64,000 nt of DNA from Escherichia coli (GTDB taxonomy: Bacteria > Pseudomonadota > Gammaproteobacteria > Enterobacterales > Enterobacteriaceae), in the NCBI RefSeq assembly GCF_001677475.2, contig NZ_CP015229.1, one strand, 5' to 3'. A model generated the notes under the pieces. It was not told where the DNA came from. It did no database searches and was given only the letters and a program-made list of their open reading frames with translations. The position numbers and the translations under genes were made by a program. This document shows positions 1-41,829 of the stretch, in pieces (position 1 is the stretch's first letter; the number at the start of each line of letters is the position of its first letter).

Positions 1-1150
<1,150 letters not shown>

Positions 1151-1243
1151 ACAACGCCGAAGCTGTTTTGGCGGATTGAGAGAAGATTTTCAGCCTGATA
1201 CAGATTAAATCAGAACGCAGAAGCGGTCTGATAAAACAGAATT

Positions 1244-1363
1244 TGCCTGGCGGCCGTAGCGCGGTGGTCCCACCTGACCCCATGCCGAACTCAGAAGTGA
1301 AACGCCGTAGCGCCGATGGTAGTGTGGGGTCTCCCCATGCGAGAGTAGGGAACTGCCAGGCAT
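1244..1363 (+). rRNA. rrfB: 5S ribosomal RNA
   Basis: 120-nt sequence UGCCUGGCGGC...GGAACUGCCAGGCAU, canonical enterobacterial 5S. Confidence 0.97.
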
Positions 1364-4994: not shown

Positions 4995-5070
<76 letters not shown>

Positions 5071-5078
5071 TCAAGTCC

Positions 5079-5163
<85 letters not shown>

Positions 5164-5279
5164 ATTTCGGCCACGCGATGGCGTAGCCCGAGACGATAAG
5201 TTCGCTTACCGGCTCGAATAAAGAGAGCTTCTCTCGATATTCAGTGCAGAATGAAAATCAGGTAGCCGAGTTCCAGGAT

Positions 5280-5354
<75 letters not shown>

Positions 5355-5360
5355 AGATGT

Positions 5361-5436
5361 GCTGATATAGCTCAGTTGGTAGAGCGCACCCTTGGTAAGG
5401 GTGAGGTCGGCAGTTCGAATCTGCCTATCAGCACCA
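5361..5436 (+). tRNA. thrT: tRNA-Thr (anticodon GGU)
   Basis: 76-nt sequence GCUGAUAUAGCUCAGUUGGUAGAGC...CUAUCAGCACCA. Confidence 0.95.
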
Positions 5437-5514: not shown

Positions 5515-6735
<1,221 letters not shown>

Positions 6736-6763
6736 TTGCCGATAACATTTGACGCAATGCGCA

Positions 6764-10532: not shown

Positions 10533-10570
10533 GCCAACCCTTCCGGTTGCAGCCTGAGAAATCAGGCTGA

Positions 10571-10602
10571 TGGCTGGTGACTTTTTAGTCACCAGCCTTT
10601 TT
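10571..10602 (+). terminator. rplL-rpoB intergenic attenuator (partial terminator)
   Basis: Hairpin GGCUGGUGACUUUUUAGUCACCAGCC followed by UUUUUG, in the 319-nt rplL-rpoB spacer. Confidence 0.75.
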
Positions 10603-24794: not shown

Positions 24795-24960
24795 CCAAAA
24801 AGTTAAGGACGTGGCTTGTCAGACGACGGATGAAGCAAGAGACGATCGCCGCAGGGGCGATGCGATAGCAGATTAACTCTTGTTCCCTTCGCAGGTATTA
24901 GCCTGATCAGGTTCCGCGGATCCCGAATAAACGGTCTCAGCCAGTTAAGGCACTCCGACA
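24795..24960 (-). promoter_or_regulatory. TPP riboswitch (thi-box) in the thiC leader
   Basis: Minus-strand leader contains ...GGAGUGCCUUAACUGGCUGAGACCGUUUAUUCGGGAUCCGCGGAACCUGAUCAGGCUAAUACCUGCGAAGGGAACAAG..., carrying the conserved CUGAGA core and flanking helices of the TPP aptamer. Confidence 0.8.
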
Positions 24961-24984
24961 AGAAATTAGCCCCACACACGGGGC
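24960..24984 (-). terminator. Putative rsd terminator
   Basis: Minus-strand hairpin GCCCCGUGUGUGGGGC followed by UAAUUUCUU. Confidence 0.45.
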
Positions 24985-36814: not shown

Positions 36815-38356
<1,542 letters not shown>

Positions 38357-38441
38357 CCTTAAAGAACTGTGCTTTGCAGTGCTCACACAGATTGTCTGAT
38401 AGAAAGTGAAAAGCAAGGCGTCTTGCGAAGCAGACTGATAC

Positions 38442-38517
38442 GTCCCCTTCGTCTAGAGGCCCAGGACACCGCCCTTTCACGGCGGTAACAGGGGTTCGAA
38501 TCCCCTAGGGGACGCCA
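38442..38517 (+). tRNA. gltV: tRNA-Glu (anticodon UUC) in the 16S-23S spacer
   Basis: 76-nt sequence GUCCCCUUCGUCUAGAGGCCCAGGACACCGCCCUUUCACGGCGGUAACAGGGGUUCGAAUCCCCUAGGGGACGCCA. Confidence 0.96.
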
Positions 38518-38710
38518 CTTGCTGGTTTGTGAGTGAAAGTCACCTGCCTTAATATCTCAAAATTCATCTTCGGGTGATGTTTGAGATATTTGCTCTTTAA
38601 AAATCTGGATCAAGCTGAAAATTGAAACACTGAACAACGAAAGTTGTTCGTGAGTCTCTCAAATTTTCGCAACACGATGATGAATCGAAAGAAACATCTT
38701 CGGGTTGTGA

Positions 38711-41612
<2,902 letters not shown>

Positions 41613-41709
41613 ACAACGCCGAAGCTGTTTTGGCGGATGAGAGAAGATTTTCAGCCTGATACAGATTAAATCGACAGGTCAGAACATGACGTGTTGATAA
41701 AACAGAATT

Positions 41710-41829
41710 TGCCTGGCGGCCGTAGCGCGGTGGTCCCACCTGACCCCATGCCGAACTCAGAAGTGAAACGCCGTAGCGCCGATGGTAGTGTGGGGTCTCC
41801 CCATGCGAGAGTAGGGAACTGCCAGGCAT
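41710..41829 (+). rRNA. rrfE: 5S ribosomal RNA
   Basis: 120-nt sequence identical to the 5S copy at 1244-1363. Confidence 0.97.

What the first reader, a model, noticed from the sequence alone, without database searches (positions are those of the whole stretch)
5164..5279. Unexplained 116-nt spacer inside the tRNA cluster
thrU-tyrU and glyT-thrT are separated by only 8 and 6 nt, but tyrU-glyT by 116 nt. This spacer has no ORF; it contains a small hairpin (GAGAG-CUU-CUCUC, about 5228-5240) and ends in CAGGUAGCCGAGUUCCAGGAU. It may be a decayed tRNA gene or a processing element that decouples maturation of the two tRNA pairs.
Basis: seen in the sequence. Interest (0 to 1): 0.1.

Follow-up and report, generated by a model that had tools for sequence, protein, structure and literature searches.

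The report
Structured spacer inside tufB tRNA operon
The 116-base gap between two tRNA genes of the E. coli tufB operon is a transcribed spacer that folds into three evolutionarily conserved hairpins followed by a strongly conserved leader of the glycine tRNA; it is most likely a processing spacer, not a dead tRNA gene, and only mildly interesting.

Summary
thrU, tyrU, glyT and thrT lie at 4995-5436 with gaps of 8, 116 and 6 nt. The noted hairpin is real but sits at 5223-5235.

The spacer is not a tRNA remnant. ARAGORN finds nothing even at 60% thresholds, and Rfam gives no tRNA or RtT match at E<=10.

It has three parts:
- a 5-nt A/U-rich tyrU trailer
- three stem-loops, hp1 5169-5188, hp2 5190-5215 and hp3 5216-5242
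- a 37-nt unpaired glyT leader holding the 12-mer GGUAGCCGAGUU (5261-5272)

The same three-hairpin layout folds independently in 12 other Enterobacteriaceae (z -3.9 to -7.3; E. coli -2.3). A covariance model built without E. coli finds the window copy at 44.9 bits. All 32 modelled pairs show compensatory changes (88% paired against 67% in shuffles). The 12-mer is exact in 40 of 48 Enterobacterales/Orbales loci.

In Yersinia, Serratia, Erwinia and Acerihabitans the same gap carries RtT repeats. The E. coli sequence shows no detectable RtT homology.

Best reading: an internal transcribed spacer whose hairpins and single-stranded flanks organise RNase E and RNase P processing. This mechanism is inferred and was not tested here.

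It is a conserved, unannotated structured spacer of a known kind. Interest is low to moderate.

The parts
4995..5070 (+). thrU, tRNA-Thr(UGU), first gene of the operon
   Evidence: ARAGORN; Rfam tRNA 73.8 bits
5079..5163 (+). tyrU, tRNA-Tyr(GUA); its CCA end borders the spacer
   Evidence: ARAGORN; Rfam tRNA 53.4 bits
5164..5168 (+). tyrU 3' trailer AUUUC, unpaired. With the terminal A of CCA it forms AA|UUU, which matches the RNase E core motif RN|WUU (cut predicted after 5164).
   Evidence: Motif scan; motif definition from the TIER-seq paper; unpaired in the fold. Cleavage itself is inferred.
5169..5188 (+). hp1: GGC-C-ACGC / GAUG loop / GCGU-A-GCC, 7 pairs with one internal C/A mismatch
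   Evidence: RNAfold; helix 1 of model R1 is 90% paired across 39 sequences, and all 7 pairs show changes on both sides
5190..5215 (+). hp2: GAG-A-CG-A-UAAG / UUCG loop / CUUA-C-CG-G-CUC, 9 pairs
   Evidence: RNAfold; found by RNAalifold on an unfitted MAFFT alignment with compensatory changes; helix 2 has 12 of 12 pairs with changes on both sides
5216..5242 (+). hp3: GAAUA..GAGAG / CUU / CUCUC..UAUUC. The 5' arm is purine-rich and the 3' arm pyrimidine-rich.
   Evidence: RNAfold; helices 3 and 4 of R1 are 74% and 97.5% paired. Not a terminator by the consensus scan on the + strand, in E. coli or Enterobacter.
5243..5279 (+). Unpaired glyT 5' leader. It contains the conserved CAGAAUG (5247-5253; CAGAAAG in most relatives) and ends at the RNase P site before G5280.
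   Evidence: Alignments A1 and A3. RNase P cleavage at the tRNA 5' end is established knowledge and was not tested here.
5261..5272 (+). Near-invariant 12-mer GGUAGCCGAGUU, positions -19 to -8 relative to glyT +1
   Evidence: Exact in 40 of 48 Enterobacterales/Orbales loci, and 7 nt from glyT in 32 of them. Unique in the 64-kb window; near-matches are at chance level.
5280..5354 (+). glyT, tRNA-Gly(UCC), single-copy and essential
   Evidence: ARAGORN; essentiality from PMC11480407 and PMC6134099
5361..5436 (+). thrT, tRNA-Thr(GGU)
   Evidence: ARAGORN
5552..6736 (+). tufB (EF-Tu), the last gene of the operon
   Evidence: Sequence read; RefSeq annotation of the identical K-12 region

Best explanation
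The 116 nt are the internal transcribed spacer of the thrU-tyrU-glyT-thrT-tufB transcript, and they are removed during tRNA maturation. The spacer is a conserved structured module with three parts. First comes a short A/U-rich tyrU trailer. Next are three stem-loops kept in place by selection on pairing. Last is a 37-nt single-stranded glyT leader with a near-invariant core. The proposed mechanism is as follows. The hairpins keep the two tRNA domains from mispairing and leave only defined single-stranded segments exposed, namely the trailer and the leader. RNase E enters and cuts there, at AA|UUU just after the tyrU CCA and probably at GAG|UU(C/U) inside the conserved 12-mer. These cuts separate the thrU-tyrU half from the glyT-thrT-tufB half. 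3' exonucleases then trim tyrU, and RNase P removes the remaining short glyT leader. Shown here: the architecture, its conservation and covariation, and the absence of promoter, terminator, ORF or tRNA signals. Inferred: which nucleases act, where they cut, and what happens to the excised hairpin block.
For: - **Gene order and gaps.** The consensus scan finds no promoter or + strand terminator in the spacer (the same holds in Enterobacter).
- **Independent folds.** Folds of 13 Enterobacteriaceae spacers each give the same three hairpins, with z from -2.33 (E. coli) to -7.33.
- **Covariance model.** Model R1 was built from 7 non-Escherichia spacers. It hits window 5163-5279 at 44.9 bits (E = 1e-11). 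This is the only hit in the 64-kb window. Erwiniaceae score 31-41 bits and Hafnia 27.6.
- **Covariation.** 88.1% of cells are paired against 66.8% in shuffles (0 of 500 shuffles reach it). All 32 pairs show changes on both sides, and slid controls give 34-45%. RNAalifold on an unfitted alignment recovers hp2 with compensatory changes.
- **Sequence homology.** nhmmer matches the E. coli spacer to Siccibacter (1e-13), Klebsiella sp. (2e-10), Shimwellia (7e-9) and Erwinia/Pantoea (about 1e-6).
- **Leader.** The 12-mer is exact in 40 of 48 loci.
- **RNase E.** An RNase E core motif lies directly after the CCA (motif). RNase E direct entry on tRNA precursors uses unpaired regions adjacent to the cut sites (PMC3985628).
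- **Operon.** The operon is described as four tRNA genes plus tufB behind one promoter region (PMC6134099; PMC8743547).
Against: - No experimental datum on processing of this spacer was found in the searchable literature.
- Relatives outside Enterobacterales manage with spacers of 19-56 nt and no hairpin block. The hairpins are therefore not needed for processing in general.
- The number of hairpins varies from 1 to 6 among Enterobacterales families. This fits 'tolerated structured filler' as well as a specific function.
- E. coli has the weakest fold of the family (z = -2.33).
- The E. coli leader matches the full RN|WUU motif only at the trailer, not inside the 12-mer.
- The covariation counts come from an alignment fitted to the model.
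Confidence: 0.55

Rival explanations
1. The excised spacer, or its three-hairpin block, is itself a stable small RNA with a trans function. An example would be a sponge or decoy for an Hfq-dependent sRNA, as shown for the 3' external spacer of leuZ and proposed for other conserved tRNA spacers.
For: Structure is conserved by compensatory changes, as expected of a functional RNA. In Enterobacter-type relatives hp3 is an A-tract/U-tract hairpin followed by U's, resembling the 3' module of Hfq-binding sRNAs (sequences). The leader contains ARN-like repeats (AGAAAGAAC in relatives). [quoted passage not shown] RNase E generates the 3'ETS-leuZ sponge (PMC5222698).
Against: E. coli hp3 lacks the U tract, and neither E. 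coli nor Enterobacter gives a terminator-like call on the + strand. The hairpin sequences, where a seed would lie, vary freely; only pairing is conserved. The one invariant stretch is next to glyT, where a processing role is simpler. No paper or held supplement reports an RNA from this spacer. The 12-mer has no significant complement elsewhere in the window or operon.
Confidence: 0.15
2. The extra 80 nt are the eroded remains of an RtT-type repeat. This is the tyrT-locus element that ends in a copy of the tRNA-Tyr 3' end. Under this reading the extra sequence has no function of its own, and hp3 is the collapsed terminal stem of RtT.
For: RtT (RF00391) occupies this very spacer in several relatives: Acerihabitans (2 copies, 125.8 bits each), Yersinia (111.9), Serratia bockelmannii (53.5), Erwinia psidii (52.3), Serratia silvae (43.8) and Erwinia endophytica (32.1). 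This gives a graded series of decay. Spacer length jumps from a median of 36 nt outside Enterobacterales to 124 nt inside. There are local resemblances by eye. CUCGAAUAA resembles RtT GACGAAUAAUCC. The purine/pyrimidine arm polarity of hp3 matches the RtT GGGGAAGG...CCUUCCCC stem. nhmmer aligns E. coli 64-116 to the decayed RtT 3' end of Serratia silvae. The tyrT trailer hairpin resembles hp1.
Against: The Rfam RtT model gives no hit in E. coli at E<=10 in 1.2 kb or in 141 nt. An HMM of 11 full RtT units finds nothing in any Enterobacteriaceae spacer, or in the Erwiniaceae second unit, at E<100. In Erwiniaceae the RtT unit and the three-hairpin module sit side by side, with RtT upstream, so they are separate modules. 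Compensatory changes show selection on the hairpins rather than neutral decay.
Confidence: 0.1
3. It is a decayed tRNA gene or tRNA-like cloverleaf: three hairpins closed by pairing of the spacer ends.
For: Three consecutive hairpins give a cloverleaf-like topology. In Enterobacter-type spacers CUUUCUG at the 5' end is complementary to CAGAAAG after hp3. The leader motif UAGC..GAGUU resembles the canonical tRNA 5' D-arm sequence UAGCUCAGUU (by eye).
Against: There is no tRNA hit in Rfam at E<=10. ARAGORN finds nothing down to 60% of its thresholds. The closing helix has no covariation support (62.3% paired against 63.9% in shuffles; 455 of 500 shuffles are as high). The hairpin sizes (20, 26 and 27 nt) and 116-nt total do not fit a tRNA. 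The hairpins are under selection rather than decaying.
Confidence: 0.03
4. hp3 is a leaky internal terminator or attenuator that sets the ratio of thrU/tyrU to glyT/thrT/tufB expression.
Against: There is no terminator-like site on the + strand in E. coli or Enterobacter asburiae. The stem has fewer than 3 G-C pairs in the U-tract species, and E. coli has no U tract. The essential single-copy glyT and tufB lie downstream, with no promoter-like site to restart transcription.
Confidence: 0.05

Closest known systems
Internal transcribed spacers of polycistronic tRNA operons processed by RNase E and RNase P (e.g. argX-hisR-leuT-proM; Kime et al. 2014, PMC3985628)
   Same: It lies between co-oriented tRNA genes of one transcription unit and has no promoter, terminator or ORF. 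A/U-rich single-stranded segments flank structured parts, and an RNase E core motif sits just after the upstream CCA.
   Different: At 116 nt it is far longer than its neighbours (8 and 6 nt). It carries three hairpins conserved by covariation and a 12-nt near-invariant leader core. No cleavage data exist for it in the literature I could search.
RtT RNA / rttR repeats of the tyrT-tyrV locus (Rfam RF00391)
   Same: Both follow a tRNA-Tyr gene. RtT copies occupy the orthologous tyrU-glyT spacer in Yersinia, Serratia, Erwinia and Acerihabitans. Both begin with a trailer hairpin a few nt after the CCA.
   Different: The E. coli spacer gives no RtT match by CM or HMM. It has no copy of the tRNA-Tyr 3' end. 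It folds as three separate hairpins rather than the long RtT stem. In Erwiniaceae the two modules coexist in tandem.
3'ETS-leuZ and the metZ-metW-metV spacers (tRNA-spacer-derived sRNA sponges; Lalaouna et al. 2015, as cited)
   Same: It is a transcribed tRNA-operon spacer, conserved among enterobacteria, and would be released by RNase E.
   Different: It is internal rather than 3'-terminal, with no terminator or U tail in E. coli. No Hfq binding or sRNA partner is known or detectable here. Conservation lies in pairing and in the tRNA-proximal leader, not in a seed-like single-stranded stretch of the hairpin block.
tRNA pseudogene
   Same: It sits inside a tRNA cluster, with three hairpins in a row.
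   Different: It fails every tRNA detector tried, and the closing stem is not supported.

Membership tests
tRNA gene / tRNA pseudogene | Match to the tRNA covariance model (RF00005) or ARAGORN cloverleaf | tested here: not met
   No tRNA hit in the spacer at E<=10 in a 1.2-kb or a 141-nt search. ARAGORN finds 0 genes at 95, 85, 75 and 60% thresholds.
tRNA gene / tRNA pseudogene | Acceptor-like closing helix joining the 5' and 3' ends around three arms | tested here: not met
   Candidate helix (trailer with CAGAAAG): 62.3% paired against 63.9% in shuffles; 455 of 500 shuffles are as high.
RtT RNA (RF00391) | Match to the RtT covariance model at or above 45 bits | tested here: not met
   No RtT hit at E<=10 in the window. 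As a positive control, 4 hits of 133-137 bits were found in the E. coli tyrT locus, and hits were found in other genera's tyrU-glyT spacers.
RtT RNA (RF00391) | Unit ends in a copy of the tRNA-Tyr 3' end (AAUCCUUCCCCCACCACCA) | tested here: not met
   No such sequence occurs in 5164-5279. An HMM of 11 full units finds nothing at E<100.
RtT RNA (RF00391) | Lies immediately downstream of a tRNA-Tyr gene | tested here: met
   The spacer starts at the tyrU CCA end.
tRNA-operon internal transcribed spacer (RNase E/P processed) | Lies between co-oriented tRNA genes with no promoter or terminator between them | tested here: met
   The operon is described as one unit in PMC6134099 and PMC8743547.
tRNA-operon internal transcribed spacer (RNase E/P processed) | Single-stranded A/U-rich RNase E sites (RN|WUU) near the upstream tRNA 3' end | tested here: met
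   AA|UUU with the cut predicted after 5164, in an unpaired segment. Motif.
tRNA-operon internal transcribed spacer (RNase E/P processed) | Demonstrated endonucleolytic cleavage and removal in vivo | not testable with these tools
   No RNA-end data are available. The TIER-seq supplements held as text do not mention glyT, tyrU or thrT.
Spacer-derived Hfq sponge (3'ETS-leuZ type) | 3' stem-loop followed by a U tail (Hfq-binding module) | tested here: not met
   No terminator-like site on the + strand in E. coli or Enterobacter. E. coli hp3 is followed by GAUAUUCAG.
Spacer-derived Hfq sponge (3'ETS-leuZ type) | Stable accumulation and base pairing with a specific sRNA | not testable with these tools
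   No interactome or Northern data could be reached.
Intrinsic terminator | G+C-rich stem directly followed by a U run on the transcribed strand | tested here: not met
   The only call is on the minus strand and is hp3 read backwards (1 found against 0.7 expected).

The most novel reading that the evidence does not exclude
The deeply conserved glyT leader motif may be an intramolecular partner of the tRNA's own D-loop and anticodon-stem 5' strand (glyT nt 14-33). The motif is GGUAGCCGAGUU in Enterobacterales, AAUAGCU in Vibrio, UGAGGUGGCC in Alteromonas and GAGGUAGU in Pseudoalteromonas/Zobellella. Under this reading it pairs transiently in the nascent transcript. It would act as a built-in folding guide or processing timer for this essential tRNA, which has an unusually weak D arm, while the three conserved hairpins upstream insulate it. 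Alternatively, the excised three-hairpin RNA could be a stable regulatory RNA.
Probability: 0.1. Interest if true: 0.55.

Novelty: new member of a known kind. Interest (0 to 1): 0.2.

Why it matters
The operon supplies two essential single-copy tRNAs (thrU, glyT) and half of the cell's EF-Tu, so correct cutting of its transcript matters for growth. If selection really maintains the hairpin block and the invariant leader for processing, they would be a clean natural model of how spacer structure directs RNase E and RNase P on a mixed tRNA-mRNA transcript. They would also deserve an RNA-family entry, because neither Rfam nor RefSeq annotates them. The finding that RtT repeats, known from the tyrT locus, also populate this spacer in other genera bears on how tRNA-Tyr-linked repeats spread. 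None of this overturns current understanding.

Tried and rejected
- **tRNA remnant.** Rejected by Rfam, and by ARAGORN at relaxed thresholds.
- **Cloverleaf closing helix.** Trailer pairing with CAGAAAG has no covariation support.
- **RtT homology of the E. coli spacer.** Looked promising because RtT fills the orthologous spacer elsewhere. CM and HMM searches are negative, and the two modules coexist in Erwiniaceae.
- **Paralogous copies in E. coli.** None found at E<=10.
- **Internal promoter.** None by the scan. A perfect TATAAT at 5290-5295 inside glyT has no -35 partner.
- **Terminator at hp3.** None on the + strand.
- **Small ORF.** None contained in the spacer, and indels among species are not in threes.
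- **Leader pairing with other operon parts.** Targets tested were the tufB UTR, the thrU leader, the tRNAs and the hairpin block. None was significant; the best was p = 0.048 in 6 tests.
- **Leader pairing with the glyT D-loop region.**
  - It is enriched across gamma-proteobacterial lineages.
  - It is weak in E. coli itself (z = -0.23) and negligible in the full-length fold (summed pair probability 0.03).
  - It is absent in 53 metagenomic Tyr-Gly loci with a different D arm.
  - I keep it only as a low-probability novel reading.
- **Literature and supplements.** Searches for this spacer returned nothing specific. Li & Deutscher 2002 and Ow & Kushner 2002 are not held.

Full report
**Observation**

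ARAGORN finds four tRNA genes on the + strand:
- thrU at 4995-5070
- tyrU at 5079-5163
- glyT at 5280-5354
- thrT at 5361-5436

tufB starts at 5552.

The spacer ends in CAGGTAGCCGAGTTCCAGGAT. GAGAG-CTT-CTCTC is present, but at 5223-5235 rather than about 5228-5240. No ORF is contained in the spacer.

The region is the E. coli tufB operon. The 276-nt tyrU-to-glyT stretch is 100% identical in K-12 and O157. The spacer alone is at least 99% identical in 5415 of 5420 E. coli genomes. It is single-copy and unannotated in RefSeq, and it is identical in E. albertii.

**What it is not**

- **No Rfam family.** Rfam (4227 families) gives no match in the spacer at E<=10. This holds for a 1.2-kb search and for a 141-nt search, where only chance-level hits of 9-14 bits appear. 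The Enterobacter orthologue also gives nothing.
- **No tRNA.** ARAGORN finds nothing at thresholds relaxed to 60%.
- **No promoter or terminator.** The consensus scan finds no promoter-like site and no + strand terminator-like site. The one minus-strand call is hp3 read backwards, at chance frequency.
- **No unusual stability.** On its own the E. coli spacer is not unusually stable (z = -0.64).

**Comparative anatomy**

In almost all of them the order is Thr-Tyr-Gly-Thr.

The Tyr-Gly gap has a median of 36 nt (range 19-114, n = 63) outside Enterobacterales. Inside Enterobacterales the median is 124 nt (range 87-483, n = 44).

Within Enterobacteriaceae the gap is 87-120 nt. nhmmer shows sequence homology to the E. 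coli spacer over nearly its full length:
- Siccibacter 1e-13
- Klebsiella sp. 2e-10
- Shimwellia 7e-9

There is also homology to the last ~100 nt of Erwiniaceae spacers, at about 1e-6.

**Three conserved hairpins**

I folded the variable part (everything before the conserved CAGAA) separately for 13 Enterobacteriaceae. Each fold gives the same layout: about 5 unpaired nt followed by three stem-loops. The z-scores run from -3.9 to -7.3 in the relatives, and E. coli is -2.33. Superficieibacter lacks hp3.

In E. coli the hairpins are hp1 at 5169-5188, hp2 at 5190-5215 and hp3 at 5216-5242.

RNAalifold on an ordinary MAFFT alignment recovers hp2 with compensatory changes.

A covariance model built from seven Enterobacter-type spacers excluded Escherichia. 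Its results were as follows:
- It hits window 5163-5279 at 44.9 bits (E = 1e-11).
- This is the only hit in the 64-kb window.
- It does not hit the tyrT locus.
- It hits Erwiniaceae at 31-41 bits and Hafnia at 27.6 bits.

On the resulting alignment 88.1% of cells are paired against 66.8% in shuffles (0 of 500 shuffles reach it). All 32 pairs show changes on both sides, and slid controls give 34-45%. That alignment is fitted to the model, which inflates these numbers somewhat. The single-sequence folds and one search do not depend on it.

A fourth helix that would close the three hairpins into a cloverleaf is not supported.

Other Enterobacterales families also fill the gap with hairpins (z about -1 to -9). 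The number of hairpins differs: one in Morganellaceae, three in Hafniaceae, Rahnella and Brenneria, and five or six in Erwiniaceae.

**The leader**

The last 37 nt (5243-5279) are unpaired and far more conserved than the hairpins. GGUAGCCGAGUU (5261-5272) is exact in 40 of 48 Enterobacterales/Orbales loci, and the rest differ by one or two changes. It lies 7 nt before glyT in 32 of those loci. It is present even in the 33-nt Plesiomonas spacer.

Related motifs occur in Vibrio, Rheinheimera, Alteromonas, Pseudoalteromonas, Zobellella and others. All are complementary (Watson-Crick plus G-U) to glyT nt 16-23 and/or 21-30.

Tests of this complementarity gave mixed results:
- Across 27 lineage representatives the leader's duplex energy with glyT 14-33 has mean z = -1.16, with 9 of 27 at p<=0.05. 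Three control windows of the tRNA give mean z near 0 and 0-1 of 27.
- E. coli itself is unremarkable (z = -0.23).
- In the full-length precursor fold the pairing has negligible probability.
- The pairing appears only in folds of the nascent RNA, and there it is weakly distinguished from shuffles.
- It is absent from 53 metagenomic Tyr-Gly loci whose tRNA-Gly has a different D arm.

I therefore record it as an unexplained deep conservation with one speculative reading. The plainer reading is a processing signal. GAG|UU(U/C) fits the RNase E preference for G at -2 and U at +2. It would leave a 9-nt leader for RNase P. From my own knowledge, not tested here, the RNase P protein contacts roughly -4 to -8.

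**RtT**

RtT elements (RF00391) are known from the E. coli tyrT locus, where I confirmed four copies of 133-137 bits. Unexpectedly, they also sit inside the tyrU-glyT spacer of other genera:
- Acerihabitans, two copies at 125.8 bits each
- Yersinia, 111.9 bits
- Serratia bockelmannii, 53.5 bits
- Erwinia psidii, 52.3 bits
- Serratia silvae, 43.8 bits
- Erwinia endophytica, 32.1 bits

This made an RtT-remnant origin for the E. coli spacer attractive. Some local resemblances can be seen by eye. Against it:
- The Rfam model does not match the E. coli spacer.
- An HMM of 11 full RtT units finds nothing in any Enterobacteriaceae-type spacer at E<100.
- In Erwiniaceae the RtT unit lies upstream of a separate three-hairpin module.

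The origin remains possible but unsupported.

**Mechanism**

I commit to the processing-spacer model with confidence 0.55. The spacer is transcribed as part of the operon. The hairpins sequester most of it. The exposed A/U-rich trailer carries AA|UUU directly after the CCA, and the single-stranded leader offers RNase E its entry and cleavage sites. This is in line with the finding that direct entry on tRNA precursors depends on unpaired regions adjacent to the cut sites. RNase P then makes the glyT 5' end, and exonucleases trim tyrU.

Everything about which enzyme cuts where is inference. What is shown is structure, conservation and the absence of other signals.

Two points caution that the hairpins may be tolerated or only weakly beneficial rather than required. 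The number of hairpins varies between families, and non-Enterobacterales manage without them.

**Literature**

No paper in the searchable library discusses this spacer. The classical sequence papers (An & Friesen 1980; Hudson, Rossi & Landy 1981; Lee et al. 1981) and the rtT papers (Bösl & Kersten 1991) are cited from memory only and could not be read. Li & Deutscher 2002 and Ow & Kushner 2002 are not held.

The idea that conserved tRNA ITS and ETS sequences may be functional is already in the literature (citing Lalaouna et al. 2015).

**Verdict**

The 'decayed tRNA' reading is wrong. The 'processing element' reading is plausible and now backed by conservation, but it remains untested. The feature is a conserved, unannotated structured spacer of a known general kind. 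Interest is 0.2.

Noticed in passing
L017 611-738 and 781-908 (-); L025 1406-1532 (-); L032 4787-4902 (+); L098 2516-2631 (+); L043 486-637 (-); L055 505-618 (-): RtT elements (RF00391), known from the E. coli tyrT locus, lie inside the tyrU-glyT spacer of Acerihabitans, Yersinia, Serratia and Erwinia. Scores run in a graded series from 126 down to 32 bits, which suggests repeated gain and decay at this site.
   Followed up: partly
window 5261-5272, and leaders of L002-L121: The glyT 5' leader carries a motif conserved across gamma-proteobacterial orders. It is complementary to glyT nt 14-33: mean z = -1.16, and 9 of 27 lineages reach p<=0.05 against 0-1 of 27 for control windows. The signal is weak in E. 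coli itself and absent where tRNA-Gly has a different D arm.
   Followed up: partly
window 5290-5295: There is a perfect TATAAT hexamer inside the glyT D arm, with no recognisable -35 or extended -10 upstream. It is probably incidental.
   Followed up: partly
window 5280-5354: In glyT the acceptor 5' strand (GCGGG) repeats the T-stem 5' strand, and CCCGC occurs in both 3' strands. RNAfold does not form the D stem. This tRNA may be prone to register errors in folding.
   Followed up: no
window 1-1361; 10537-10598; 24867-24967 (-); 36815-41827: Other RNA features in the window are the end of an rrn operon (23S, 5S), a P26 (RF00630) match, a TPP riboswitch on the minus strand, and a complete rrn operon with a StyR-44 match at 38595-38703 and a spacer tRNA at 38442-38514.
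   Followed up: no
L025 3448-3753: There is a Ysr206 sRNA match (212.7 bits) about 2 kb from the Yersinia tufB tRNA cluster.
   Followed up: no
L019, L047, L051, L053, L066, L082, L116 (Aeromonas): Aeromonas carries a second tRNA-Gly(UCC) copy preceded by tRNA-Gly(CCC) instead of tRNA-Tyr, with spacers of 10-105 nt.
   Followed up: no
window 5300-5408: A weak YrlA (Y RNA-like) match of 31 bits, against a gathering score of 69, spans glyT-thrT. It is a by-product of the tRNA-like part of that model.
   Followed up: no
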